Shown: positions 31,662-44,747 of the stretch, piece after piece
Layout of the letters: each line of letters opens with the position of its first letter
Position numbering within the stretch: the first letter of the stretch is position 1
Origin: Escherichia phage TR3
Sequence record: PP069512
Reading direction: 5' to 3' (one strand)
DNA length: 44,747 nt
Position numbers and translations under genes: made by a program
The notes under the pieces: model-generated
The model's input: only the letters and a program-made list of their open reading frames with translations
What the model was told of the DNA's origin: nothing
The model's database searches: none

Positions 31662-33245
31662 TCACCCCAACAATCGCGGATTAATGTAAATCTTATCACC
31701 AATCAGGCATGTATAGTTTTTCTCATCAAGCATAGGAACCAAGTGGTCCTTGATGCGAGTCATTACGCCAGCCTGTCCTTCAAAAGGTTTAACTTTGCGT
31801 GCTGCTTCATACAGTGAGCGAACGCCAACAACACCCTTCCCATTCTTACCTTGCTTAATCAGGATATCAACCAGCTTATTCATTTCAGCATTATCACCAG
31901 CATGACCAGCAGCACTAGCGGACGACAAATAAGTCTTGCTTAACTCGTGGAAAATCATAACCGCTTCTTGCATTGTTTCAAGCTCAATCTCTCTTGATTT
32001 CTGCGGACTCGACCCTGCCGGTGCGAACCAGTTGCGAATAACGTGCAATACTGAGGCAATACGGATTGCTTGCTTATCAAATTTACCAAGAGCACCACGT
32101 AACATCGTGTGGGAATATTTACCGCCATCACCAAGATGCGGTTCCATTTCCTGGCGAGCTCGGTTAAGGTAGCGCATGGATGACGCACTTACTGTCAGTT
32201 TCACTTCAACTTCATTCATAATTTCATGAACGAGACGGAAATAGTCTGCTTTAAGACCATCATCAATAGCCTCGTATGTTGAATCGCCATTCTCATCAAC
32301 AAACACGCGGTCTCCAAGAAATGACTTTTCACGCACCAGAAGGAAACGCTCGGAAACACCAATACCACGCGCACCAGCATTCATAATCGCATTGATTGTT
32401 TCATCCTGAGCAATTACAGAGATGCACCCCATTGCCACGAAACTCATGTTGTTTTCTGCGTTAGCGCGGGCAATAGATACGTTACCAGCATCCCACGCTT
32501 TAAGTACAAGCTCGCTGTTCGTTTTCTTGGAACCATCACCGTATGTCATGCCCAATAATGAGTTGACGCTTGTTGCCTCATCCGAGATGACCGCAAAGTT
32601 ACCCTGGCGGTTGTTGATTCGTGCAAGACCTTCTGGCGTAGTATCTGAGACCGGGAATACGATATCGCACAGCTTCTCGAGCTTTTCCTCTAAATCTTCC
32701 TTCTCCTCAAACAGTGAAGCCATCTCAGATGGTGACTTCTCCTGTTTCATTTCTTTTGCTAGCGCAGACAGCTTAGCCATAATCTTTTTGCGGTCACGTT
32801 TACGCACCTCGTTCAAACGCTCAGTCTCAGCAATCATTGGCGCAATTGACAGAGAGTTAATGGCTGACTTACCAGTAGATGGCGGCTGGCTAGTTACCAC
32901 GTAAAGCGATGTTGGCTGCTGGGTTCCGTGATACTCAACAGTAAAGCGCCCTAGCATCGCAGCGGACACACAACCCAAAAAGTGCATGTATGCTGATGAC
33001 TCTGGGAACTGAACTGAGCGAGCAATATTTGCCGAGAGCTTACCAACAACATCAATGTCATTGCCTAGAGATATTACAGGGTACTTGTCATTACCTGCGT
33101 CAATCTCCATAGGTGTTTTCCAGAATGATTGAGACTGCCGATAGCCATTTGCATTAATGGCAACGCGAAGCGGTGGGAGGTTGTCGGTCGCGGCAATCGC
33201 CATAACTTGTTCAACAGATAGTTTATCTTCGTTGAAATCAAACAT
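31662..33245 (-). CDS. P-loop NTPase of unknown role (possible replication/helicase-like)
   Basis: Walker A-like SQPPSTGKSA; 527 aa; RBS GGAGAG; own promoter box. Confidence 0.55.
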   Translation of the reverse strand: MFDFNEDKLSVEQVMAIAATDNLPPLRVAINANGYRQSQSFWKTPMEIDAGNDKYPVISLGNDIDVVGKLSANIARSVQFPESSAYMHFLGCVSAAMLGRFTVEYHGTQQPTSLYVVTSQPPSTGKSAINSLSIAPMIAETERLNEVRKRDRKKIMAKLSALAKEMKQEKSPSEMASLFEEKEDLEEKLEKLCDIVFPVSDTTPEGLARINNRQGNFAVISDEATSVNSLLGMTYGDGSKKTNSELVLKAWDAGNVSIARANAENNMSFVAMGCISVIAQDETINAIMNAGARGIGVSERFLLVREKSFLGDRVFVDENGDSTYEAIDDGLKADYFRLVHEIMNEVEVKLTVSASSMRYLNRARQEMEPHLGDGGKYSHTMLRGALGKFDKQAIRIASVLHVIRNWFAPAGSSPQKSREIELETMQEAVMIFHELSKTYLSSASAAGHAGDNAEMNKLVDILIKQGKNGKGVVGVRSLYEAARKVKPFEGQAGVMTRIKDHLVPMLDEKNYTCLIGDKIYINPRLLG

Positions 33246-34677: not shown

Positions 34678-34722
34678 ATTATGGTCTCGTTACCAATGTT
34701 TGTCATTAGCAAAAAGTGCTAT
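34678..34722 (-). promoter_or_regulatory. phage promoter box, variant (minus strand), about 23-bp spacer
   Basis: rc of 34707-34722 = ATAGCACTTTTTGCTA; CATAAT-like -10. Confidence 0.4.
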
Positions 34723-34741
34723 TCGTTGGGTTTATGTATTA

Positions 34742-34832
34742 TTGCAGTTATTGCAATGATTCATCTCATTATTGCACATATAGCAATATTGCATCTGATG
34801 CAATGATTTTTTTGATTGTTGCAGAATTTGCA
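34742..34832. repeat. iteron-like array of 7-8 TTGCA boxes
   Basis: TTGCA at 34742, 34751, 34772, 34789, 34819, 34828 and TGCAA at 34799; pairs about 9-10 bp apart, pair-to-pair about 30 bp. Confidence 0.6.
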
Positions 34833-34914
34833 ATTATTGATGTGAGGGTGAATGAATGGTGGATGGACTACCATACAAGTTGATTTTTATTCTGGCCGAG
34901 CCATTTTGCCGCAT

Positions 34915-35070
34915 ACACGTAACCGGCGTAGCGCGATGTAAGCCAACCACTATCGTTACGCGAGTTACGCGAAGCTACGCCTAGACTTACACTATAAGTA
35001 CTTAATATATATATATATCTTCTTTCTATTATTATTATTATTATTATTATTATTGTATGTAAGTCATGTA
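34915..35070. repeat. non-coding control element, copy B (ACACGTAACCG box, GTTACGC repeats, (TA)7 and (ATT)8 microsatellites, TCATGTAACT)
   Basis: Paralogous to 16840..17001. Confidence 0.6.
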
Positions 35071-35324
35071 ACTGGTGCTCTTCTGCTATATATATGTTTT
35101 TTCCTATCAGAGTACATATCTGCAATTTTATGGAAGAAATAGCCAGTATTGGGCAACCCCACCCAATTTATGCGTTACAGGCGTTACCACAAACTACATT
35201 TAGCTATAGCTTGGCTAGGATGCCATTTCGCGTAACCACACCTAAAAGTTACCAAAAATTACACTTGATTACGTGTGTAAGTCGATATATGATGGATTCA
35301 ACCTAAACGAGAGGAGTGATAAAC

Positions 35325-35804
35325 ATGAATGAGAAAGCAACATTGGGTCAAGTGATTCGCGAGATGGTAAAACAGGCTCTAAAATCTGAAGATAAGCAAT
35401 TCAGCGTTTCACTAAGGAAAATTGAAAGCATTATTGGCAGTGAAGATGGTTCCATTAAGAAGCTTAAGAGCTCATACATCTACAACACAACAGCTCGCAT
35501 GCCTGAGTTGAGAGACGCAGGTATGAAGGCGACTCACTACTATGATGAAGATAGCGGCAAAAGCCAATTCGGCGTGACAGAGCTATCAGATGGCAAGAGG
35601 CTGGTTATCAAACTGATCCCTGGAACTGCCAACATTGGTATCAGGAAGAAGACCAATGACGCAATCAAGGTGGAGGCAATAACTGAATTCAAGGCTAAGA
35701 TATCGAAAGTCATGCCAGACCTATCGGAGTATGAAGGTGAAGCGCTCGCAGCAGCAATGAAAGCAATTAAAGATTATCGTTTGATTATTGAGGAGATTAA
35801 ATAA
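35325..35804 (+). CDS. hypothetical protein (159 aa)
   Basis: ATG 35325 with RBS GAGGAG (track start 35316 is GTG). Confidence 0.55.
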   Translation: MNEKATLGQVIREMVKQALKSEDKQFSVSLRKIESIIGSEDGSIKKLKSSYIYNTTARMPELRDAGMKATHYYDEDSGKSQFGVTELSDGKRLVIKLIPGTANIGIRKKTNDAIKVEAITEFKAKISKVMPDLSEYEGEALAAAMKAIKDYRLIIEEIK

Positions 35805-35845
35805 TGTTTAACTTTAACGATGACAAACTAACAGCATAGCAGGTA

Positions 35846-36328
35846 ATGAATATCGCCAGGCAAGATGGACTTTCGCCAGTCAGAATCGTAATAAATGCAA
35901 ATGGGTATCGTCAGTCAACGCCATTCTGGGGTTCGATTGATACGTCAGATGTGTACTCAGGTGATGAGCTTGGTGTGCTAATTAAAATCATCAGGAAGAT
36001 GGGAGTTAACGGGAAAGGAGTGGTTGGTGTCAGGTCTGTATATGAAGGAGCTCGAAAGGTTAAGCCTTTTGTTGGGCGTAATGGAGTGATGTTGCTCATC
36101 AAGGACAAGCTAATCCCAGAGCTCGACAAGATGAATGTTACATGTCTAATTGGCGATAAGGTTTATGTTCACCCCGCAATACTCAATGAGTGTTGGGAGC
36201 CTAACTTCAAGGTCTACGAAGGTAAGCATCCTAGTAGACTACCATACCACTTGCGGTACAGCGAGGAAGAGGTTGAGGCGGCGATGGAGTTTTATCGGGA
36301 AGCTAAATTACTCCTGAATGGACAATAG
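35846..36328 (+). CDS. truncated paralog of the P-loop NTPase (N- and C-terminal regions only; amber-interrupted leader at 35804..35839)
   Basis: Residues VINANGYRQS and GKGVVGVRS..KVKPF..CLIGDK match ends of the 31662..33245 protein; upstream in-frame MFNFNDDKLTA-TAG matches that protein's N-terminus MFDFNEDKLSVE. Confidence 0.55.
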   Translation: MNIARQDGLSPVRIVINANGYRQSTPFWGSIDTSDVYSGDELGVLIKIIRKMGVNGKGVVGVRSVYEGARKVKPFVGRNGVMLLIKDKLIPELDKMNVTCLIGDKVYVHPAILNECWEPNFKVYEGKHPSRLPYHLRYSEEEVEAAMEFYREAKLLLNGQ

Positions 36329-36368
36329 CACGAATTGCTAAACAATCGCCGGAGAAATCCGGCATAAT
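36326..36368 (+). promoter_or_regulatory. phage promoter box (ATAGCACGAATTGCTA, 22-bp spacer, CATAAT)
   Basis: TAG of box is stop of upstream gene; spacer holds hairpin GCCGGA-GAAA-TCCGGC. Confidence 0.5.
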
Positions 36369-36399
36369 TACCACATCGACAACACGATGGAGTATAGAG

Positions 36400-36609
36400 A
36401 TGAGAATAAAGATTATTGAAGTTGACATTGCTGATGGTGACGAACTTAGCCTTGCTGATTGCGGTTTCCAGGTTGGTGATATTGTTGATGTTTCCGGTAA
36501 GTATAAAGATGGTAGCTTATCAGTTCAGGCGATTCGTGATACTGATTTAGTAACAATCGGCAACGAGATTAGTTTGCAAGAAGGCGAATACGAGGTAATT
36601 GAAGAATGA
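36400..36609 (+). CDS. hypothetical small highly acidic protein (69 aa)
   Basis: RBS GGAG; Asp/Glu-rich. Confidence 0.5.
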   Translation: MRIKIIEVDIADGDELSLADCGFQVGDIVDVSGKYKDGSLSVQAIRDTDLVTIGNEISLQEGEYEVIEE

Positions 36610-36785
36610 GATTCCGACAATCAGAACCAAAACTTCAGGCTAACCACTCCGACGGCTACGCAACATTCATCATTGCTCAGGCTTGCGGAATGCGTGACGA
36701 ACCTCAAGTTCACACCATCCACTTAACAGAAGAGCAAGCTAGAGAACTGGCTTACGAAATTCTTGAGCAATTGAACAAGATTTAA
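36606..36785 (+). CDS. hypothetical small protein (59 aa)
   Basis: Not in track; ATGA coupling. Confidence 0.4.
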   Translation: MRFRQSEPKLQANHSDGYATFIIAQACGMRDEPQVHTIHLTEEQARELAYEILEQLNKI

Positions 36786-36795
36786 GGAAAACAAG

Positions 36796-36930
36796 ATGCA
36801 CACGGAACTTATGATTGACGAGGTTTTAGTTGAGGCTTTACCATGGTTGTTGTGGTCTCTGGGCTTCGCGATTATTTACATTATTTCGGCAGCCGTAGAC
36901 GATGCTAAAACGCATTCTAACGAACTATAA
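36796..36930 (+). CDS. small membrane peptide (44 aa)
   Basis: Not in track; RBS AAGGAAA; hydrophobic core LPWLLWSLGFAIIYIISAAV. Confidence 0.4.
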   Translation: MHTELMIDEVLVEALPWLLWSLGFAIIYIISAAVDDAKTHSNEL

Positions 36931-36948
36931 TTTAAGGCATGCGATTAG

Positions 36949-37107
36949 ATGGATAACTACGAAAAACCAAGCCAGTGGGCTAAGAGAATGATGGATGATG
37001 CTGAGACTGGCGAGATTGCCATGATGTACTTTGAGTTAATGAATATCTGGAAAGAGCGTGAGGAAAAGCGTGGTCTAAATAAGGGCGAGGATAAGAAAAA
37101 TGCTTAA
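36949..37107 (+). CDS. hypothetical small protein (52 aa)
   Basis: Not in track; weak RBS. Confidence 0.3.
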   Translation: MDNYEKPSQWAKRMMDDAETGEIAMMYFELMNIWKEREEKRGLNKGEDKKNA

Positions 37108-37258
37108 CACATGTTTATTCCCGAAATGTGATGAATTTGTTGAGGATTTAATCTACTTCAATGAGAAATACGGTGACACGTTTGAGTGCGATGGCGATAC
37201 AGACGAAGTATTAGCAACTTTTGATAGAGGGCCAGATGTAGACAGCACGAATAGCTAA
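37100..37258 (+). CDS. hypothetical small protein (52 aa, ends DSTNS inside promoter box)
   Basis: Not in track; overlaps previous ORF by 8 nt. Confidence 0.35.
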   Translation: MLNTCLFPKCDEFVEDLIYFNEKYGDTFECDGDTDEVLATFDRGPDVDSTNS

Positions 37259-37285
37259 ACGTGACAGGCATTGATGCCATATAAT
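37242..37285 (+). promoter_or_regulatory. phage promoter box (ACAGCACGAATAGCTA, 22-bp spacer, TATAAT)
   Basis: Spacer holds palindrome GGCATTGATGCC. Confidence 0.5.
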
Positions 37286-37314
37286 CAACCAATCAAACAA
37301 CGAGAGGGCAGAAA

Positions 37315-37551
37315 ATGTTTGGATTAGAAGATGCATACTTCAACGCAGTTAAGCACCAGGCTGACAAGCTGAACGACGAGTACGGAAAGTTGGGCGCAAA
37401 GAAGAAAGACGATAAAGTTGTCGCAGCACTGATTACTCAGGTTTGGGGTCCTGTGTCTACGCTAATTGCGAGGGATAAATTTGTGTGGATAGCTGGGTAT
37501 AGAAAAGGTCGCGTTGACCACGATGAGAATGGGAATAGCCTTTATGAATAA
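37315..37551 (+). CDS. hypothetical protein (78 aa)
   Basis: RBS GAGAGGG. Confidence 0.5.
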   Translation: MFGLEDAYFNAVKHQADKLNDEYGKLGAKKKDDKVVAALITQVWGPVSTLIARDKFVWIAGYRKGRVDHDENGNSLYE

Positions 37552-37780
37552 GATCAAGTCACTAATGTTTAAGGTCGGAATTCTACATAAGCATAAATAT
37601 AGATTATTCCGACGCATAAGTTGGTTTGAGGATTCGTATCAGGATGGGTGTAGGACAAAGCTAATCTGTACAGTTTGCGGGAAGATTGTTAACTCAAATG
37701 TTGACCTAATGGTTTGTAAAAGCACGCTGGATTTCGTTAGGTATGAAAAAGAGATTGCATCACTGACAGGAAAGTATTAG
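37544..37780 (+). CDS. hypothetical protein with zinc-ribbon-like Cys pairs (78 aa)
   Basis: C..CTVCGK...C pattern; start chosen at Met overlapping upstream stop. Confidence 0.45.
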   Translation: MNKIKSLMFKVGILHKHKYRLFRRISWFEDSYQDGCRTKLICTVCGKIVNSNVDLMVCKSTLDFVRYEKEIASLTGKY

Positions 37781-37979
37781 TATTTATCTCGTAGGCATAC
37801 GAGCTAGCCAAGCTAGAACGGCGCACGGAGCGCAACACAAAGTCCATTGCTAATTAAGTAGCGTACATGGCAAGTTGGCCAAAGAGGATAAGGCGCAAAC
37901 CTCAATAACCGGTCGAGAAACTCGACGCTGGAGGCGTAACCAGCAATCTTTAAATAGCGCAATCGCTACTTAAATATTT

Positions 37980-38055
37980 GTTCTGCTGGCGTAACAGGAT
38001 AACGCAAAGACCTCCTAAGTCTTAGTTGCTGGTTCGAGTCCAGCGCGGAACACCA
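37980..38055 (+). tRNA. tRNA-Arg (anticodon CCU), CCA encoded
   Basis: Hand-folded cloverleaf: acceptor GTTCTGC/GCGGAAC (one G-U), D stem GCGT/ACGC, anticodon stem AAGAC/GTCTT with loop CU-CCU-AA, T stem GCTGG/CCAGC with loop TTCGAGT, discriminator A + CCA. Confidence 0.85.
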
Positions 38056-38071
38056 ATAAAGGAGATTCATT

Positions 38072-38254
38072 ATGTGGGATGTTAAGCTTTCAATCCGCTT
38101 AATGGGTCGAAGCTGTAAGAATTGTCAGCAAGAATTTATCGCGTCGGTTACCGCTGAGTCCTCAGAGGAAGCGGTAGCGAAAGTAAAGGTAATGTCTGGT
38201 GCCGACCCGGATTACCACAAATTCCTAGTAACTTACGTTCGTGAGCGAAAGTAA
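38072..38254 (+). CDS. hypothetical small protein (60 aa)
   Basis: RBS AAAGGAG; Cys pair C..C; followed by terminator. Confidence 0.55.
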   Translation: MWDVKLSIRLMGRSCKNCQQEFIASVTAESSEEAVAKVKVMSGADPDYHKFLVTYVRERK

Positions 38255-38307
38255 AAGAAGTTCTACTCTCTGGTTGTTTCATCTCTCTCGTTGTTGTTCG
38301 ATAATTC

Positions 38308-38330
38308 GCCCTCTTCTTGAGGGCTTTTTT
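38308..38330 (+). terminator. intrinsic terminator
   Basis: GCCCTC-TTCTTG-AGGGC hairpin then TTTTTT. Confidence 0.7.
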
Positions 38331-38342
38331 ACGTCTGTAATA

Positions 38343-38351
38343 TGGTATAAT
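38343..38351 (+). promoter_or_regulatory. extended -10 promoter (TGGTATAAT) for packaging operon
   Basis: TGnTATAAT about 25 nt upstream of TerS ATG. Confidence 0.5.
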
Positions 38352-38376
38352 CTTACATCAACAAAGGAGGTCACAA

Positions 38377-38901
38377 ATGAAAGACGAAAACTTCACCAGC
38401 CAGGCGCAAGAAAAGATTCGCTCTGGCAACTTCAAAGCCATGTACAACAAAAAGTATTCTGACATTACAACTCTGTCCAAAAACCGAATAATGACCCCAG
38501 AGCAGCTATTCGACCTGGCCGTGAAATACTTCTCATGGGCTGAGAGCCAGGCAATCAAGGCAATTGAGACAGCCAGCTTCCAGGGTGTCGTAACCGAGAA
38601 TCTGGTGCACAAGCCACGAGTCTTCACACTAACAGGATTCTGCCTTTACTGCGGTGTTACCCATAGCGCAATAGAGAAATGGAGGAAGTCGGAGGGTTAT
38701 GACGAGGTAATTGCATTCATTGATTCCGTGATTCGCGAGCAGAAGTATCAGCTGGCAGCGTCTGGCATTGTTAACCCTGGCATGATTTCCAAAGAACTTG
38801 GCATCGATAAGCCGCAGGAGATTACTATAAGCAATAACTCTTCAGCTAACGACGTTGGCACGATGAAGGAAGCGCTGGAGTCTGTGATTAGTAAGCTGTA
38901 G
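38377..38901 (+). CDS. terminase small subunit (putative)
   Basis: 174 aa immediately upstream of HNH and terminase large subunit; RBS AAAGGAGG. Confidence 0.55.
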   Translation: MKDENFTSQAQEKIRSGNFKAMYNKKYSDITTLSKNRIMTPEQLFDLAVKYFSWAESQAIKAIETASFQGVVTENLVHKPRVFTLTGFCLYCGVTHSAIEKWRKSEGYDEVIAFIDSVIREQKYQLAASGIVNPGMISKELGIDKPQEITISNNSSANDVGTMKEALESVISKL

Positions 38902-38941
38902 CACTTTTTGTTAAAAGAAGAGGCCCAATCAATGAGATAAT
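38899..38941 (+). promoter_or_regulatory. phage promoter box (TAGCACTTT-TTGTTA, 22-bp spacer, GATAAT)
   Basis: TAG of box is TerS stop; -10-like sits in loop of GGCCCA/TGGGCC inverted repeat. Confidence 0.5.
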
Positions 38942-38969
38942 GGGCCCAACAAACTAGCGAGGTGATCAT

Positions 38970-39476
38970 ATGAATTGGCATGATATTTTTGAATATAGAG
39001 ACGGGCTTTTAATAAGAAAGGTAAAAGTAGCAAATGTATCAAAGGTTGGAGAGGTGGCCGGAAGAGTTGATAAATTTGGCTATGTGATACTAAAGTATAG
39101 ACAAAAAGCATACAGGTGTCACAGGGTGGTGTGGGAGATGCACAATGGAGCAATCCCTAAAGGCATGCACATAGATCACATAAACCAAAATAGAAGTGAC
39201 AATAGAATAGAGAACTTAAGGTTAGTAAGCAATAAAGAGAACTCAAATAACAGATCACTATCATCAAGAAATAAAAGCGGAATAAACGGTGTAAGCTGGT
39301 GCAAAAGAGAGAATAGATGGCTTGTTCAGGCTAGAGAGTTTGGTAAAACAGTCTTCATATGCTACAAGGACACTATAGAGGAGGCTGCATTGGCAAGGTC
39401 GCAGTATGACAAATTGAACGGATATCATGAAAATCATGGCTCTGAAAATAAAGGCTACCTAAATACGAGAGCGTAA
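38970..39476 (+). CDS. HNH homing endonuclease with AP2-like domain (paralog of 394..990)
   Basis: HNH motif HIDHINQNRSDNRIENLRLVSNKEN; AP2-like SGINGVSWCKRENRWLVQ; shared DTIEEA segment with 394..990; RBS GAGGTG. Confidence 0.85.
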   Translation: MNWHDIFEYRDGLLIRKVKVANVSKVGEVAGRVDKFGYVILKYRQKAYRCHRVVWEMHNGAIPKGMHIDHINQNRSDNRIENLRLVSNKENSNNRSLSSRNKSGINGVSWCKRENRWLVQAREFGKTVFICYKDTIEEAALARSQYDKLNGYHENHGSENKGYLNTRA

Positions 39477-39478
39477 CA

Positions 39479-41050
39479 ATGAGTGAATTAATAGTCTGGG
39501 ATGAACTGACTCACGCTGAAAAGATGGCTATAAAGGCAATCTCTGAGCATAGTTTCGAAGGGTTCTTGCGGTGCTTCTTTCAGATAACGCAAGGCGAGAG
39601 ATTCAAAATGAATTGGCATGCTAAATACCTTTGTCGTGTCATAGATGAGATTCTTGATGGTAAGAGAAAGGATACCATCATAAACGTAGCTCCTGGATCA
39701 GCCAAAACCGAGCTCTTTAGTATACATTTCCCTGTATATAGCATGATCAAGATTAAGAAGGTTAGAAATCTTAGTTTGTCGTTCTCTGACTCATTGGTTA
39801 AGCGTAACTCAAAGCGTGTGCGCGACCTGATTAAGTCAAAGGAGTTTCAGGAACTTTGGCCTTGCTCATTTGGGACTTGCAGGGATGATGAGATTCAGGT
39901 TCTAGATGAAGATGGAAAGGTGAGGTTTGAATCGATATCTAAGGCAATGGCTGGACAGGTGACTGGTTCGCGTGGTGGTTACATGACCGATGATTACAGT
40001 GGATGCATAATGCTTGATGACCCGCTGAAGCCAGATGATGCGCTTAGTAATGTAAGGAGGGAGGCTGTTAATATGCTTCTCAAGAACACAATTCGCTCAC
40101 GAAGGGCGAGTTCAGTTAAGGGAAAAGAGACTCCAATATTAGCCGTTCAGCAAAGGCTTCATGTTCTTGACACTAGTCACTTCATGGAGTCCGGGCAGAT
40201 GGGGATAAAATTCGACGTAGTTAAAATTCCAGCAATAGTCACGGAAGAATACGCCGACACGCTTCCTGAATGGATTAGGCAGCAGTTTATAGATGACGTT
40301 CTTTCTTCGCCATTTGTAGAGCGCGATGGGGTTAAGTATTACAGCTACTTCCCAGCAAAGGAATCAATAGAAGACTTGATAGCCATGCGTGATGCTGATC
40401 CTTACACATTCCTTAGTCAATATGCTCAGGAGCCTGTAGCTCTAGGTGGCAACCTGATTAACGTAGACTGGCTCCAGCGCATTAGTGACACCCTGCGACC
40501 GCCAGCTAAGTACGATTACAGGTTCATGACGCTTGATACCGCGATGACCACTAAAAGCTACAGTGACTTTAGTGTACTGCAACTCTGGGGCTATAAGGAT
40601 GGCAAGATTTACCTGTTAGACCAGCGACGTGGTAAATGGGAGGCGCCAGAGCTAGAGGCAGAGCTATTAGACTTCGAGAGGATGGCAAGGGCATCCAATC
40701 AGACAGATGGTATCCTTCGTAAAATCATCATCGAGAAGAAAGCATCTGGTATAGGTCTGATTCAATCAGCAGGAAGGGTTATGCGAACGCCTATCGAGCC
40801 ATACGTGCCAGATAACGACAAGCTGACTCGCGTAATGAGTGCACTTCCTCAGATTAAGGCTGGCAACGTTATCCTGCCGGAGTCAGCAAATTGGCTTAAC
40901 GGATTGCTAACAGAGATTGCAGCATTTACGGCAGATGATTCTCACTCGCACGATGACCAGATAGACTGTTTGACGATGGCTGTCAACCTGGTACTGAACA
41001 TCGCAGAAGACCCTAAAGCGAGAATGATGCGATTAGCAGGAATTAAATAA
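39479..41050 (+). CDS. terminase large subunit
   Basis: 523 aa; ATPase-type N-terminal region (VAPGSAKTE) and C-terminal nuclease-type region; position before portal. Confidence 0.8.
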   Translation: MSELIVWDELTHAEKMAIKAISEHSFEGFLRCFFQITQGERFKMNWHAKYLCRVIDEILDGKRKDTIINVAPGSAKTELFSIHFPVYSMIKIKKVRNLSLSFSDSLVKRNSKRVRDLIKSKEFQELWPCSFGTCRDDEIQVLDEDGKVRFESISKAMAGQVTGSRGGYMTDDYSGCIMLDDPLKPDDALSNVRREAVNMLLKNTIRSRRASSVKGKETPILAVQQRLHVLDTSHFMESGQMGIKFDVVKIPAIVTEEYADTLPEWIRQQFIDDVLSSPFVERDGVKYYSYFPAKESIEDLIAMRDADPYTFLSQYAQEPVALGGNLINVDWLQRISDTLRPPAKYDYRFMTLDTAMTTKSYSDFSVLQLWGYKDGKIYLLDQRRGKWEAPELEAELLDFERMARASNQTDGILRKIIIEKKASGIGLIQSAGRVMRTPIEPYVPDNDKLTRVMSALPQIKAGNVILPESANWLNGLLTEIAAFTADDSHSHDDQIDCLTMAVNLVLNIAEDPKARMMRLAGIK

Positions 41051-41062
41051 GCGTGATAAACT

Positions 41063-41086
41063 AGCCTCTTAAATGGGGCTTTTTTA
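41063..41086 (+). terminator. intrinsic terminator / attenuator
   Basis: AGCCTC-TTAAAT-GGGGCT hairpin then TTTTTTATTGGAG. Confidence 0.5.
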
Positions 41087-41099
41087 TTGGAGCAAGAAA

Positions 41100-42374
41100 A
41101 TGGTAAAAGCAGATTCATACGCCACGCAGTTCCTGGGTGGAACTAGTGATGGTAGCGAGATTTACGGGCAATTCGGCAACACTTACCTTGCGCCACCATT
41201 CGCCGATTCACTTTACGTGTCTAACTCACTGGTTCGCCGCATCGTCGATACCATCCCAGAGACAGCAATCGCCGCAGGTTTCCATATTGATGGCATTGAT
41301 AACGAGGGTGAATTCTGGTCAAGGTGGGATTACCTAAAGGTCAACGAGTCAATCTCTGACGCATGGTCATGGGCGAGGTTGTTCGGCGGCTCAGCTATTG
41401 TGGCTATCGTTAAGGATAATCGTGCGCTAACTAGTCCGGTACGTGAAGGTGCTGAACTTGAATCGCTTCGAGTATACGATCGCAGTCAGGTGAGGGTGCA
41501 AGCGAAGGAGGAGAATCCTCGCAATGTTCGATTTGGAAAACCACTAACGTACCGCATAACACCTGAAGGTAGCTCCACGTTTTATGATGTGCATTACTCT
41601 CGAGTTCACATTATGGATGGAGAGAAGATTCCTAGCTCATTGCGTCTCGGCAATGATGGGTGGGGTGCTAGCGTTCTGGTTCCTGACCTACTGGAGGCAA
41701 TCAAGGATTATCAGACGTGCGAGAAACTGGCAACCCAGTTATTGCGCCGTAAGCAACAGGCGGTATGGAAGGCGAAGGGGCTTGCTGAATTGTGTGACGA
41801 CGCAGAAGGTTTTGGTGCGGCAAGGTTAAGGCTGGCTCAGGTTGATGATAATTCCGGCGTTGGTCGCGCGATTGGTATTGATGCAGAGTCTGAAGAGTAC
41901 AGTGTTCTGAACTCGGATATTGGTGGGATTGATGGATTCCTGGATAAGAAATTCGACAGGATTGTTGCTCTGAGTGGTATTCATGAAATCATCCTCAAAG
42001 GCCGTAACGTTGGTGGTTTGTCATCAAGCCAAAACACAGCATTGGAGACATTCCATAAACTAATCGACCGCAAGAGAAATGAAGAATTACTCCCTGTTCT
42101 TGTTTTTTTAATCCCGTTCATCACAACCGAGCAGGAATGGTCAGTTGAGTTTAATCCGCTAGCTCAGGAATCGAAGAAGGACCGCGCTGAAATACTGAAG
42201 AATAACGTTGATTCAATCGCCACTCTCATCACTAACGGAGTAATGGACGCAGATGAAGCACGAGATACCTTGCGCGCATTAGCCCCTGAGGTTAAGATTG
42301 GTGAAGGTTCGATTGTAACTGAGCAGCCCGCACAAGAAGAATCACCAAAAGAGGAGATTGTAATTGAAAGCTAA
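41100..42374 (+). CDS. portal protein
   Basis: 424 aa directly after terminase; ATG 41100 with RBS GGAG (track start 41073 lies inside terminator hairpin). Confidence 0.75.
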   Translation: MVKADSYATQFLGGTSDGSEIYGQFGNTYLAPPFADSLYVSNSLVRRIVDTIPETAIAAGFHIDGIDNEGEFWSRWDYLKVNESISDAWSWARLFGGSAIVAIVKDNRALTSPVREGAELESLRVYDRSQVRVQAKEENPRNVRFGKPLTYRITPEGSSTFYDVHYSRVHIMDGEKIPSSLRLGNDGWGASVLVPDLLEAIKDYQTCEKLATQLLRRKQQAVWKAKGLAELCDDAEGFGAARLRLAQVDDNSGVGRAIGIDAESEEYSVLNSDIGGIDGFLDKKFDRIVALSGIHEIILKGRNVGGLSSSQNTALETFHKLIDRKRNEELLPVLVFLIPFITTEQEWSVEFNPLAQESKKDRAEILKNNVDSIATLITNGVMDADEARDTLRALAPEVKIGEGSIVTEQPAQEESPKEEIVIES

Positions 42375-43476
42375 AATTCGTTATGACAGTGCAAAAGTTA
42401 AAGCGCGATTTGACGAAAACGGATTCCTGGTAGATACACCTGTGGTTGCTCGCGTAGGCGTGCAATCATACTACCTGCCAGATGGCTCGGAACGACGCGA
42501 ATTTAGGCCAGCTTCAGAGGTCTTTAAAGCTGATTCTCTTGCAAGTTATCAGGGCAAGCCGATTACCTTAGGCCACGTGTTTGTTAACGTTGATAATGCC
42601 AAGCAGGTAGTTGTAGGCTCAGTGTCTGGCTCAGCAATGCGTCAGGATTCGAACGTGGTAGTTCCACTAACCGTTTACGACAAGGAATCAATCGAGAAAG
42701 CTAAATCTGGCATTGCCGCCGAGTTATCTGTAGGCTACTCGACTGTTGATGTTGAGTCTCCAGGTTGGGGGAGTAATGAGACTGGTGAATACAAGTTGGA
42801 TGGTGATTACGAGTCCCAAGATGAAATTCCACCTGACTGGGTTCGTTTTGATGCACTGCAAACTAACATTATTGTTAATCACGTTGCAATGGTATACAAA
42901 GGTCGCGCAGGTGTTGCAAAATTGAATATGGACGCAGAACAGGAAAACCCGTATACTGACAGCGTTGATTCTATTAAAGAGGATGTTAAAGAAATGGTTA
43001 AGATTAAACTGGATGGCGCCCAGGAGTTCGAAATCGCTCCAGAAGTTGCCGCACACATTGAAGCTATTAAAAAAGATGCAGTTGACGCTAAAACCAAAGC
43101 CGACTGCATTGAAGCTGAGCGTGATGCGCTGAAGGCTAAAGTAGACGCGATGCCTGCTGAAATCGAGAAAGCCGTTAAAGCTGCTAAAGCCGACGCTGAA
43201 GCACTTGCCGCTCTGGTTACTGTAGCCGCAGAGGTTGGAATTAAGACTGATGGTCTGGATGCTAAAGGCATCAAAGTAGCTTACGTTAAAGAAGTTTCCG
43301 GCCTTGATGTTGCTGATAAATCCGACGCATACATCGACGCAGCGTTCGACATTGCCAAGGATTCTGATAAAATGGCTGAAGTTCGTAAAGCTACCGTAGC
43401 TTCCGACAAATCTGACAAAGCTGACGAACCTAAGAAATTAGACCCACGTGCTCGTCTGGCTAAAATTAAAAAGTAA
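42364..43476 (+). CDS. putative head maturation protease / scaffolding protein
   Basis: TTG start with strong RBS AAAGAGGAG 7 nt upstream, overlapping portal end; Ala/Lys/Glu/Asp-rich coiled-coil C-terminal half. Confidence 0.5.
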   Translation: MKAKIRYDSAKVKARFDENGFLVDTPVVARVGVQSYYLPDGSERREFRPASEVFKADSLASYQGKPITLGHVFVNVDNAKQVVVGSVSGSAMRQDSNVVVPLTVYDKESIEKAKSGIAAELSVGYSTVDVESPGWGSNETGEYKLDGDYESQDEIPPDWVRFDALQTNIIVNHVAMVYKGRAGVAKLNMDAEQENPYTDSVDSIKEDVKEMVKIKLDGAQEFEIAPEVAAHIEAIKKDAVDAKTKADCIEAERDALKAKVDAMPAEIEKAVKAAKADAEALAALVTVAAEVGIKTDGLDAKGIKVAYVKEVSGLDVADKSDAYIDAAFDIAKDSDKMAEVRKATVASDKSDKADEPKKLDPRARLAKIKK

Positions 43477-43487
43477 GGAGATAGATA

Positions 43488-43982
43488 ATGGCAATTCGTT
43501 CTGTAGCTCTGGCAGGTATGGTAGCTGATACTTCCCTGTATAATATCGATGGTGCTTGTGTGGTTGGTGGTACTGCTGCCACTAGAATCCCGGTTGGAAC
43601 ATTCGTAGGTGTTAGCACCGCTCAGCCAGTAGATGGTCACAAGGTTGTTGCCCTTCCGGCTATATCAGGAACTGCAATTAAACCTTACGGCGTTGTTGTT
43701 AAATCTCATTATGAGACTCCAGATGGTCAGGCTCGCGGCCTTGAGGCAGTTAACGTAATGACTTCTGGTCGTATTTGGGTTCGCACTACTCTTGCAGCTG
43801 CTCCGGCATTTGGTGACAAGGTTTTCGTAAATGAAAGTGGCGTTGTTGCCGCTAAAGTGGGACGTTCTACCTGGGGAACTGGTTTCACATTTGCTGGTGG
43901 CTATGTATCAGCTAGTGAAAGCGTTGATGGCGCACTGGTTGAAGTTCAGCTGATTCAATCCGCAGACTCAACTGTGGCTTAA
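43488..43982 (+). CDS. putative head decoration / accessory capsid protein
   Basis: 164 aa with strong RBS AAGGAG between scaffold and capsid genes; followed by terminator. Confidence 0.45.
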   Translation: MAIRSVALAGMVADTSLYNIDGACVVGGTAATRIPVGTFVGVSTAQPVDGHKVVALPAISGTAIKPYGVVVKSHYETPDGQARGLEAVNVMTSGRIWVRTTLAAAPAFGDKVFVNESGVVAAKVGRSTWGTGFTFAGGYVSASESVDGALVEVQLIQSADSTVA

Positions 43983-44006
43983 CAAAATCTGAATGCACAA
44001 ATAAAC

Positions 44007-44030
44007 AACCTCCTTCGGGAGGTTTTTTTA
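44007..44030 (+). terminator. intrinsic terminator
   Basis: AACCTCC-TTCG-GGAGGTT hairpin then TTTTTTTAT. Confidence 0.7.
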
Positions 44031-44058
44031 TACCTTCCGCTTGGTCATGATAGAATCA

Positions 44059-44086
44059 TTGCGCGGTCCTCAAACTAGTGTATAAT
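44059..44086 (+). promoter_or_regulatory. candidate sigma70 promoter for capsid gene (TTGCGC-N16-TATAAT)
   Basis: Canonical spacing; about 40 nt upstream of capsid ATG. Confidence 0.45.
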
Positions 44087-44124
44087 TGACTCGTACATAC
44101 CTAACTGAAAAGGAATAAACAAGA

Positions 44125-44747
44125 ATGGCCATTAAATTTGATGCAGAACAAGCAAAAATCACCGCTCACCTAGAGCAAATGGGCGTAGATAAGGCTGATG
44201 CTGCTGGTATCTGGACCGTTAAGCAGTTAACCGCATCACTGAATCGCGCTTACGAAAAAGAATACGCAGACAACTCAGTTGTCAACATCTTCCCAGTAAC
44301 CAACGAAATCCCTGGTCACGCGAAATACTTCGAATACAATGAGTTCGATGGTGTTGGTATTGCTCAGATCATCGCTGATTACTCTGACGACCTGCCGATG
44401 GTTGATGCTTTCATGACCGAGAAGCAGGGTAAAGTATTCCGCTTCGGTAATGCGTTTATGATCTCAGTTGATGAGATTAAAGTTGGCGCTGCTACTGGTC
44501 AGTCACTGTCCGCTCGCAAACAGGCTTTGGCTTTTGAAGCTCACGACAACCTGCTTGATAAACTGGTATGGTCTGGCTCTGCACCTCACGGCATCGTAAG
44601 CGTATTTAACCAGCCGAACATCAACAACGTTGTTGCAACTCCAAACTGGAGCAATCCAATTAACGCGGTTAACGACGTTACCGCAATGATTGATGCTGTA
44701 GAAACCAGCACACAGGGCTTCCACCATGTAACTGACATTCTGCTGCC
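44125..44747 (+). CDS. major capsid protein, N-terminal part (3' end beyond window edge; continues in 2..322)
   Basis: Open frame from ATG 44125 to window end (207 codons); RBS AAAAGGAA; not in ORF track because no stop is reached. Confidence 0.6.
   Translation, partial: MAIKFDAEQAKITAHLEQMGVDKADAAGIWTVKQLTASLNRAYEKEYADNSVVNIFPVTNEIPGHAKYFEYNEFDGVGIAQIIADYSDDLPMVDAFMTEKQGKVFRFGNAFMISVDEIKVGAATGQSLSARKQALAFEAHDNLLDKLVWSGSAPHGIVSVFNQPNINNVVATPNWSNPINAVNDVTAMIDAVETSTQGFHHVTDILL

What the first reader, a model, noticed from the sequence alone, without database searches (positions are those of the whole stretch)
35804..36328. Amber-interrupted, internally deleted paralog of the P-loop NTPase gene
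The reading frame starting at ATG 35804 encodes MFNFNDDKLTA, then an in-frame TAG (35837-35839), then QVMNIARQDGLSPVRIVINANGYRQSTPFW. This matches the N-terminus of the intact 527-aa protein at 31662..33245 (MFDFNEDKLSVEQVMAIAATDNLPPLRVAINANGYRQSQSFW) with Glu replaced by amber. The paralog then jumps to the C-terminal region (GKGVVGVRS..EGARKVKPF..CLIGDKVY), lacking the roughly 400-aa Walker A core, and has a unique 45-aa tail. It could be a decaying duplicate or a functional mini-protein that retains interaction domains without ATPase activity.
Basis: seen in the sequence. Interest (0 to 1): 0.75.

Follow-up and report, generated by a model that had tools for sequence, protein, structure and literature searches.

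The report
Broken helicase-derived mini-gene in T1-like phage
This T1-like E. coli phage carries a small, conserved gene built from the two ends of its replicative helicase without the motor, and in this phage the copy was recently broken by a stop codon, as has happened independently in many related phages.

Summary
The window is Escherichia phage TR2 (Drexlerviridae, Braunvirinae). The frame from ATG 35804 has an in-frame TAG at 35837-39. Its product matches residues 1-45 and 448-526 of the 527-aa DUF3987 (MCM-like) helicase, which lies on the minus strand at 31662..33245. A 47-aa tail follows that the helicase lacks.

It is not a rotting one-off duplicate. It belongs to a catalogued but uncharacterised family (phrog_7327). 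Intact 173-177 aa members are abundant, evolve under purifying selection (dN/dS about 0.22), and always follow a DUF7174 gene with an overlapping stop and start.

The amber is a single GAG-to-TAG change shared only by TR2, CY1, Rao1 and four read-archive assemblies. It is recent: dN/dS against the nearest intact relatives is 0.11-0.18. Rao1 has since gained a second amber.

At least eight other independent stops or frameshifts hit this gene in other phages and metagenomes. The upstream neighbour and the helicase show none.

My reading is a dispensable accessory "microprotein" that mimics the helicase termini and is repeatedly lost. The mimicry mechanism is inferred, not shown. TR2 makes either nothing or an N-truncated 160-aa restart product.

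The parts
35804..36328 (+). Full reading frame of the helicase-derived mini-gene (phrog_7327 family). It would encode 174 aa if codon 12 were Glu.
   Evidence: intact 174-176 aa orthologues in PCEc3, AugustePiccard, TR1; phrog_7327, E 4.6e-64 for the 160-aa ORF, covering profile positions 15-179 of 179.
35837..35839 (+). Premature amber codon (codon 12). It is a single G-to-T change from GAG (Glu), a nearly invariant residue of the family.
   Evidence: DNA alignment; column 13: TAG in 3 sequences, GAG in 17; this Glu is conserved in at least 90% of sequences.
35846..36328 (+). 160-aa ORF from Met15, 6 nt after the amber. GenBank annotates this as the CDS in TR2 and CY1. It is a possible termination-reinitiation product. 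It lacks the conserved MFxFNxDKLTxEQ peptide and the start of helix 1.
   Evidence: Only AGGT lies 1 nt before the ATG, so there is no properly spaced Shine-Dalgarno sequence (read). Helix 1 spans residues 11-21 in the helicase model.
35804..35938 (+). N-terminal module (codons 1-45) homologous to helicase residues 1-45. It is predicted to form three short helices.
   Evidence: E 2e-17. (helices 11-21, 25-33 and 36-41, pLDDT about 88 in the helicase model).
35954..36184 (+). Winged-helix-like module (codons 51-127) homologous to the helicase C-terminal domain (residues 448-526).
   Evidence: 61% identity, E 1e-21. (H-E-H-H-E-E pattern over 451-521, pLDDT about 90). (phrog_2373 'DNA helicase' positions 441-514). 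[quoted passage not shown]
36185..36325 (+). Family-specific tail (codons 128-174) with conserved SRLPYHLRY and EEVExAxEFYRKAK motifs. It is absent from the helicase.
   Evidence: nearly invariant columns; the terminal helix motif is kept in members about 30% identical; no similarity to the helicase or to the gene downstream of it; tail dN/dS 0.29-0.32.
31662..33245 (-). Parent paralogue: the 527-aa DUF3987 / MCM-like (SF6) putative replicative helicase.
   Evidence: PF13148, E 1.4e-40. (AF2 pLDDT 88, pTM 0.86). (best PDB fold matches are MCM2-7 subunits, E down to 3e-5). PMC4889955, PMC11724360.
35325..35804 (+). Upstream partner gene (DUF7174, phrog_4841). Its TAA stop overlaps the mini-gene ATG (TAATG). 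GAGGAG at 35790-35795 serves as the mini-gene's ribosome-binding site.
   Evidence: The gene lies immediately upstream of the mini-gene wherever the upstream flank was recovered and is never disrupted (0 of 29 distinct translations). It is found in 129 phage records.
35265..35293 (+). Promoter-like site (TTGATT-17-TATGAT) upstream of the DUF7174 + mini-gene pair. This is a consensus match only.
   Evidence: The EC3a GenBank record annotates a promoter at the equivalent position.

Best explanation
Shown:
- The locus is a member of a conserved phage gene family (phrog_7327). The family arose from the MCM-like DUF3987 helicase gene by loss of the roughly 400-aa AAA+ core.
- The protein keeps the N-terminal three-helix module and the C-terminal winged-helix domain, and adds a conserved tail.
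- The family is under purifying selection and is the second gene of a two-gene unit with DUF7174.
- In TR2 a recent GAG-to-TAG mutation at codon 12 truncates the product.
- The same gene has been hit independently by stops or frameshifts in many other phages, while its neighbours have not.
- The gene is dispensable for lytic growth on laboratory E. coli.

Inferred:
- The intact protein is a non-catalytic mimic of the helicase termini, a 'microprotein'. It would bind whatever the helicase's N-terminal module and winged helix bind (partner protein, helicase ring or DNA) and so modulate or compete with helicase function early in infection.
- This function would help in some hosts and be neutral or costly in others, which would explain the repeated loss.
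- In TR2 the allele is null, or gives a low-level 160-aa restart product lacking the conserved N-terminal peptide.
For: Homology and architecture.

Family size and conservation:
- 259 hits, the best 120 almost all 173-177 aa.
- 78% mean column identity, with many near-invariant residues in all three parts.
- About 10 clusters at 50% identity, all with N module + winged helix + terminal helix.
- 102 phage records carry the gene over at least 80% of its length.

Selection:
- dN/dS is 0.22 overall among 13 intact orthologues (N module 0.18, winged helix 0.20, tail 0.29-0.32).
- Window versus its nearest intact relatives gives 0.11-0.18, so the stop is recent.

Point mutation.

Recurrent disruption:
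- Codon 6 TAG (L012).
- Codon 12 TAG (TR2, CY1, Rao1).
- Codon 44 TAG (Rao1 plus 4 read-archive assemblies).
- Codon 38 TAA (EC3a).
- Stop at about codon 34 plus a frameshift (IME542).
- Stops at about codons 140-153 (DTL, Veterinaerplatzvirus, two metagenome contigs).
- One frameshift in a metagenome contig.

Controls:
- 9 of 31 distinct mini-gene translations have stops, against 0 of 29 for the adjacent DUF7174 gene (Fisher p = 0.002).
- 0 of 16 helicase genes are disrupted.
- The mini-gene is the only real gene disrupted in the window among about 30 shared with the intact relative L061.

Dispensability: TR2 reaches 3.5e9 PFU/mL on BL21(DE3) (PMC12628846). Rao1, with two ambers, is used as a healthy laboratory phage (bioRxiv 10.1101/2024.12.20.629578).

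Parent function: DUF3987 proteins are SF6-type helicases with a C-terminal winged helix (PMC4889955). One member is a proven 5'-3' helicase that binds its primase (PMC11724360).
Against: - No experiment or structure bears on what the mini-protein binds.
- Its own AlphaFold model is poor (pLDDT 53), so I could not show that the two modules fold as they do in the helicase.
- I could not inspect the helicase model's coordinates to see whether the N module and the winged helix touch.
- There is no same-genome co-variation between mini-gene and helicase in most lineages.
- The helicase is 89-97% conserved where mini-genes are only 41-88% identical. This fits an arms-race or host-directed role as well as it fits helicase regulation.
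- Recurrent loss could be mere dispensability plus sampling; the count of independent events is small.
- The metagenome stops could include assembly errors.
Confidence: 0.6

Rival explanations
1. The amber only moves the start. Ribosomes terminating at TAG 35837 reinitiate at ATG 35846, and the 160-aa protein (as annotated in GenBank for TR2 and CY1) keeps the family's function.
For: ATG 35846 is 6 nt after the stop, and the whole downstream frame is intact and conserved. An independent lineage (L012) has an amber at codon 6, upstream of the same Met15. No nonsense mutation among 9 falls in the winged-helix module, which holds about 33% of the nonsense target (p about 0.03). Restart after early nonsense codons is classical in E. 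coli (lacI, T4 rIIB; own knowledge).
Against: There is no properly spaced Shine-Dalgarno sequence before 35846. The 14 lost residues include the most conserved N-terminal motif, shared with the helicase (M, F, F, K, L, T, E nearly invariant), and the first turn of helix 1. The sister lineage Rao1 then gained a second amber at codon 44, which also destroys the 160-aa product. Met15 is not conserved in the family (Ile or Val in many members).
Confidence: 0.22
2. The amber is read through (by a suppressor tRNA or programmed readthrough), so the full-length 174-aa protein is still made.
For: TR2 plaques on DH5alpha (PMC12628846). That strain carries the glnV44/supE44 amber suppressor (own knowledge). 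The lineage circulates in laboratory and fermentation strains. Both premature stops in Rao1 are amber.
Against: TR2 was isolated and grown on BL21(DE3) (PMC10450929, PMC12628846), which has no known amber suppressor (own knowledge). The phage encodes only tRNA-Arg(CCT). GAG and TCG can each reach a stop in one step only via TAG, so the amber identity is forced and carries no information. Stops in other lineages are TAA and TGA at scattered positions, so there is no programmed site. Suppression would put Gln at a nearly invariant Glu.
Confidence: 0.05
3. Functional rival for the family: the mini-protein is not a regulator of the phage's own helicase. It is instead a host-directed early protein, such as an anti-defence decoy or a trigger recognised by a defence system, or a winged-helix DNA-binding regulator acting on the conserved intergenic region.
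For: It sits in the first rightward early unit next to the divergent promoter and packaging region. It evolves much faster than the helicase (41-88% versus 89-97% identity in the same genomes). Recurrent knock-outs are the pattern seen for phage genes that trigger abortive-infection systems; Rao1 escapes Kongming by mutating its dNMP kinase (bioRxiv 10.1101/2024.12.20.629578). Winged-helix domains commonly bind DNA.
Against: There is no match to PADLOC-type or known anti-defence families (not searched in PADLOC; Pfam gives nothing). Disruption shows no association with a particular host type: TR1 is intact and TR2 and IME542 are broken, all on BL21(DE3). Retention of both helicase termini specifically argues for a helicase-related interaction.
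Confidence: 0.3
4. The small gene is an old, functionless remnant of a duplicated helicase gene (a decaying duplicate throughout the family).
For: Premature stops are frequent.
Against: Over 110 intact clusters of constant length. dN/dS is 0.22, including in the tail. Translational coupling with DUF7174 is conserved. Architecture is conserved down to about 30% identity. Broken copies show almost no further decay, so they are young.
Confidence: 0.03

Closest known systems
DUF3987 (PF13148) / SF6 MCM-like phage replicative helicases with a C-terminal winged helix (phrog_2373)
   Same: The first 45 residues and the last 80 residues (the winged-helix domain) are clearly homologous (E 2e-17 and 1e-21). 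The parent gene lies 2.5 kb away in the same genome.
   Different: The whole AAA+ core (Walker A/B, residues about 46-447) is missing. There is no Pfam DUF3987 match. A 47-aa family-specific tail is added. The mini-gene evolves several-fold faster than the helicase.
phrog_7327 (PHROGs family of unknown function)
   Same: Full-length profile match (E 1.3e-77 for an intact orthologue, 4.6e-64 for the window's 160-aa ORF). This is the family the gene belongs to.
   Different: The window's copy has a premature amber. The family has no assigned function, and I found no published note of its helicase origin.
MicroProteins / dominant-negative truncated paralogues (e.g. Id proteins versus bHLH factors, LITTLE ZIPPER versus HD-ZIPIII; own knowledge)
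   Same: A small separate gene derived from a larger multi-domain protein. It keeps putative interaction modules but has lost the catalytic or active domain.
   Different: Those are eukaryotic transcription-factor regulators with demonstrated titration mechanisms. Here, binding and dominant-negative action are untested.
N-terminally shortened isoforms of phage replication proteins made from one gene (T7 gp4A/4B, phiX174 A/A*; own knowledge)
   Same: Phage replication enzymes accompanied by a shorter relative that shares part of the sequence and modulates replication.
   Different: Those are internal-start products of the same gene and keep the motor or nuclease domain. This is a separate, diverged paralogue with an internal deletion that removes the motor.
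Classical phage amber mutants and translational restarts after early nonsense codons (T4 rIIB, lacI; own knowledge)
   Same: A single-base change to TAG early in a non-essential gene, with an in-frame ATG just downstream.
   Different: It arose naturally, is fixed in a circulating laboratory and fermentation phage lineage, and is one of many parallel hits in the family.

Membership tests
DUF3987 helicase family (PF13148) | Match to the PF13148 domain (AAA+ core with Walker A and B) | tested here: not met
   Pfam scan of the 160-aa ORF gives no family. BLASTP shows that helicase residues about 46-447 have no counterpart. The 527-aa paralogue meets it (E 1.4e-40).
DUF3987 helicase family (PF13148) | C-terminal winged-helix domain homologous to that of DUF3987 helicases | tested here: met
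   61% identity over 79 residues, E 1e-21. Matches phrog_2373 positions 441-514. H-E-H-H-E-E secondary structure at pLDDT about 90 in the helicase model.
phrog_7327 | Full-length match to the family profile | tested here: met
   E 4.6e-64, positions 15-179 of 179 for the window ORF. E 1.3e-77, positions 1-179, for intact orthologue P0002.
phrog_7327 | Conserved context: immediately downstream of, and overlapping, a DUF7174 gene | tested here: met
   TAATG overlap in the window. DUF7174 is found upstream wherever the upstream flank was recovered.
Pseudogene / null allele | Premature in-frame stop relative to intact orthologues | tested here: met
   TAG where 17 other sequences have GAG.
Pseudogene / null allele | Relaxed constraint (dN/dS near 1) or further disabling lesions | tested here: inconclusive
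   dN/dS of the window copy against intact relatives is 0.11-0.18, so there is no decay yet. Sister phage Rao1 and four read-archive assemblies, however, carry a second amber at codon 44.
Pseudogene / null allele | No protein product | not testable with these tools
   Needs proteomics or ribosome profiling. A 160-aa restart ORF exists.
Dominant-negative microprotein | Derived from a larger protein, keeping interaction modules and lacking the active domain | tested here: met
Dominant-negative microprotein | Binds the parent protein or its partners and inhibits or modulates them | not testable with these tools
   No multimer prediction or experiment was available. The monomer model has low confidence.

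The most novel reading that the evidence does not exclude
T1-like phages encode a helicase-derived microprotein: the N-terminal docking module plus the winged helix of their MCM-like helicase, with no motor. Together with DUF7174 it would titrate a helicase partner, or act as a decoy for a host factor that recognises the helicase termini. Because this activity is costly or is sensed in some hosts, the gene is knocked out again and again. That would make it a natural marker of an undiscovered phage-host conflict centred on the replicative helicase.
Probability: 0.25. Interest if true: 0.7.

Novelty: new variant of a known kind. Interest (0 to 1): 0.5.

Why it matters
Truncated paralogues that keep interaction domains but lose the enzyme core are a known regulatory device in eukaryotes. 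They are hardly documented for phage replication machinery.

This case comes with a conserved family, a fixed gene partner (DUF7174) and a ready-made natural allelic series: an intact form, losses of the first 14 or first 65 residues, and tail-less forms. These occur in easily grown E. coli phages (TR1, TR2, Rao1, Bas01, DTL, EC3a). That makes the function of the helicase N-terminal module and winged helix directly testable, along with the reason for repeated gene loss.

For annotation, it shows two things. The 160-aa (TR2, CY1) and 109-aa (Rao1) CDSs in GenBank are remnants of a 174-aa gene. And one automated gene caller rescued the frame by wrongly reading TAG as Gln.

Tried and rejected
- Sequencing error: rejected. 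Seven independent assemblies share the TAG.
- Phage-encoded suppressor tRNA: rejected. Only tRNA-Arg(CCT) is present.
- Tail derived from the gene downstream of the helicase, or from the helix preceding the helicase winged helix: no similarity (BLASTP; hhalign E 0.21).
- Concerted evolution between mini-gene and helicase within a genome: identities for same-genome and cross-genome pairs are indistinguishable. The exception is a two-residue signature in phiEB49-like phages.
- A second 'disrupted gene' at window 34722-35149, suggested by a 143-aa ORF called in relative L061: rejected. That ORF has stops in most phages and is conserved non-coding DNA.
- Structure of the mini-protein: the AlphaFold model is too poor to search with (pLDDT 53). 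A profile search of PDB sequences found nothing.
- Literature on DUF7174, the mini-gene or Braunvirinae early genes: nothing relevant.
- Link between disruption and isolation host: none evident. Both intact and broken alleles were isolated on BL21(DE3) and on K-12.

Full report
**Identity of the window.** The region 35300-36620 is 100% identical to Escherichia phage TR2 (OP251154; Drexlerviridae, Braunvirinae, Christensenvirus). It is 99.8% identical to Rao1 and 99.6% to CY1. TR2 was isolated from contaminated fermentation substrate on E. coli BL21(DE3). Among 12 E. coli strains tested it plaques only on BL21(DE3) and DH5alpha (PMC10450929, PMC12628846). Rao1 is a laboratory phage used on MG1655 (bioRxiv 10.1101/2024.12.20.629578).

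**Check of the observation.** The frame opening at ATG 35804 reads MFNFNDDKLTA, then TAG (35837-39), then continues open to TAG 36326-28. BLASTP against the 527-aa protein gives two independent strong matches.
- Mini residues 1-66 match helicase 1-70 (50% identity, E 2e-17).
- Mini residues 51-127 match helicase 448-526 (61% identity, E 1e-21).

The intervening helicase residues about 46-447 have no counterpart. They contain the Pfam DUF3987 domain (residues 81-432, E 1.4e-40). The last 47 residues of the small protein match nothing in the helicase or in the gene downstream of it. The only correction to the finding is that the 527-aa gene lies on the minus strand. The two paralogues therefore face away from each other across a divergent, conserved non-coding region (about 34.7-35.3 kb).

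**What the parent is.** The 527-aa protein gives a confident AlphaFold model (pLDDT 88, pTM 0.86). Its best fold matches in the PDB are MCM2-7 subunits and archaeal MCM (E down to 3e-5, probability 1.0, though TM is only about 0.35). [quoted passage not shown] It also agrees with the demonstration that a PriCT-DUF3987 protein is a 5'-3' helicase that binds its primase (PMC11724360). The model has three parts.
- A short three-helix N-terminal module (helices 11-21, 25-33, 36-41).
- The AAA+ core.
- A C-terminal H-E-H-H-E-E winged-helix pattern (residues 451-521).

The small gene keeps exactly the first and last of these.

**The small gene is a real, conserved family.**
- Intact 174-176 aa orthologues with GAG (Glu) at the amber position exist in TR1, PCEc3/PsgS01F and AugustePiccard (Bas01).
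- tblastn finds the gene over at least 80% of its length in 102 phage records. The helicase termini alone match in about 765 Drexlerviridae records.
- A search of 5.8 billion proteins gives 259 hits. The best 120 are almost all 173-177 aa. Mean column identity is 78%, with near-invariant residues in the N module, the winged helix and the tail (SRLPYHLRY, EEVExAxEFYRKAK).
- An exhaustive profile search of 1.8 billion representatives finds only 49 hits. About ten are full-length clusters at 50% identity, all with N module + winged helix + a C-terminal amphipathic helix. The family is old, diversified and confined to T1-like phages.
- PHROGs already holds it as phrog_7327, function unknown. It has no Pfam family and no relative of solved structure. 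I found no literature on it.
- Pairwise Nei-Gojobori dN/dS among 13 intact orthologues is 0.22 (N module 0.18, winged helix 0.20, tail 0.29-0.32).

**Context.** The gene always follows a DUF7174 gene (phrog_4841), whose TAA overlaps its ATG (TAATG). A GAGGAG ribosome-binding site sits 8 nt upstream. Promoter-like sites lie upstream of DUF7174 and downstream of the mini-gene (EC3a annotation). This suggests a two-gene early unit, although consensus matches are not proof. DUF7174 occurs in 129 phage records, roughly the same subset of Drexlerviridae.

**The amber.** It is a single G-to-T change, GAG to TAG, at a nearly invariant Glu. It is shared by TR2, CY1, Rao1 and four read-archive assemblies, so it is real and inherited. 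The window copy against its nearest intact relatives (L060, L061, L062) has dN/dS of 0.11-0.18. That is no higher than intact-versus-intact pairs, so the stop is recent.

Rao1 and the four read-archive contigs carry a second amber (TCG to TAG, codon 44). Across the 9.9-kb block in which Rao1 and TR2 differ by only 14 substitutions, this is one of the 14. One database protein (P0001) looked like an intact 99%-identical copy. It is an artefact of a gene caller reading all three TAGs as Gln.

**What TR2 can still make.** ATG 35846 (Met15) lies 6 nt after the stop and opens the 160-aa ORF that GenBank annotates. It has no properly spaced Shine-Dalgarno sequence, since AGGT ends 1 nt before the ATG. 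Only termination-reinitiation could feed it. The product would lack the conserved MFxFNxDKLTxEQ peptide shared with the helicase and the first turn of helix 1. The phage has no suppressor tRNA. BL21(DE3) has no known amber suppressor; DH5alpha does (supE44; own knowledge). Full-length protein is therefore expected only in suppressor hosts, and then with Gln at an invariant Glu.

**Recurrent disruption.** A tblastn scan of every locus fetched (GenBank isolates, IMG/VR, JGI/ENA metagenomes, read-archive assemblies) shows independent lesions.
- Codon 6 TAG (L012).
- Codon 12 TAG (TR2 lineage).
- Codon 44 TAG (Rao1 sub-lineage).
- Stop at about codon 34 plus a frameshift (IME542, isolated on BL21(DE3)).
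- Codon 38 TAA (EC3a).
- GAG to TAG at about codon 141 (DTL).
- TGA at about codon 140 (the 44,219-bp Veterinaerplatzvirus genomes).
- A frameshift (L047) and two tail stops (L048, L051) in metagenome contigs.

Controls:
- 9 of 31 distinct mini-gene translations contain stops, against 0 of 29 for the adjacent DUF7174 gene (Fisher p = 0.002).
- 0 of 16 helicase genes are disrupted.
- Gene by gene, the mini-gene is the only genuine gene broken in the window relative to the intact relative L061. An apparent second case is a spurious ORF in conserved non-coding DNA.

None of the nine nonsense events falls in the winged-helix module, although it holds about a third of the nonsense-mutable sites (p about 0.03). 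This is weak, but it fits some residual use of that domain. Broken copies show almost no further decay. Disruption is therefore frequent and young, and intact copies dominate. That pattern fits an accessory gene that is useful in some settings and dispensable or costly in others. No link to a particular isolation host is visible.

**Mechanism (inferred).** The protein keeps both termini of the helicase and nothing else from it, adds a conserved tail, is co-translated with a fixed partner, and is expressed from the early region. The most economical reading is a non-catalytic mimic of the helicase termini. It would occupy the helicase's partner, ring or DNA site and so tune or compete with helicase loading.

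A host-directed role (decoy or trigger for a defence system) or a DNA-binding regulator remain live rivals. The mini-gene evolves far faster (41-88% identity) than the helicase in the same genomes (89-97%), which favours a host-directed role. None of this is tested. The mini-protein's own model is poor (pLDDT 53), and no multimer prediction was possible.

**Verdict.** The observation and the title claim are right. The allele in this window is an ordinary, recent nonsense mutation in a dispensable gene. The more interesting result is the family behind it: an uncharacterised helicase-derived mini-protein under purifying selection that is knocked out repeatedly and independently. Interest is moderate (0.5). 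I class it as a new variant of a known kind (a truncated, domain-retaining paralogue).

Noticed in passing
window 35934 (codon 44 of the mini-gene); L005/L063 (Rao1), L008-L011: Rao1 and four read-archive assemblies carry a second amber (TCG to TAG) in the same gene. It is one of only 14 differences from TR2 in a 9.9-kb block. Rao1's annotated gp02 (109 aa) is the remnant starting at Met66.
   Followed up: yes
P0001 (187 aa; L008-L011): A database protein that looked like an intact 99%-identical copy is an artefact. The gene caller read all three TAG codons (two premature, one natural stop) as Gln and ran on to the next TAA.
   Followed up: yes
window 34700-35300, both strands: The divergent intergenic region between the leftward and rightward early units is conserved at the DNA level across Braunvirinae. 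It contains an ATT/ATA-rich run and several promoter-like sites. TR1's record marks the equivalent place as the initial packaging site. One gene caller turns it into a spurious 143-aa ORF that has stops in most phages.
   Followed up: partly
L021/L033 and L024/L034 (phiEB49-like genomes): In this lineage the mini-gene's winged helix shares derived residues (NSKGVVGLRS, INPRLL) with its own genome's helicase, and the usual tail is replaced by a different one. This hints at gene conversion between the paralogues or at a separate, younger origin.
   Followed up: partly
window 35316-36328; L001-L062: DUF7174 (phrog_4841) and the mini-gene (phrog_7327) form a fixed, translationally coupled pair (TAATG overlap) found in about the same 110-130 Drexlerviridae genomes. 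DUF7174 is never disrupted. Its function is unknown and no paper mentions it.
   Followed up: partly
window 36330-36370: A conserved promoter-like element (TAAACA-18-CATAAT; TATAAT in EC3a) overlaps a GC-rich hairpin (CGCCGGAGAAATCCGGC) just after the mini-gene stop. This suggests that the next genes form a separate transcription unit.
   Followed up: no
window 37980-38055: A single tRNA-Arg (anticodon CCT) gene is the only tRNA in the phage. It is not a suppressor.
   Followed up: yes
window 1-34862 versus Rao1: TR2 and Rao1 are mosaics. They are 99.86% identical over 34864-44747 but only 74-98% identical in other blocks (tail fibre and tail tip regions are lowest), which indicates recent recombination among laboratory and fermentation contaminant phages.
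   Followed up: no
window 38970-39476: An HNH-type endonuclease ORF sits between the small and large terminase genes. It is annotated as an HNH homing endonuclease in Rao1, and related HNH ORFs occur elsewhere in relatives.
   Followed up: no
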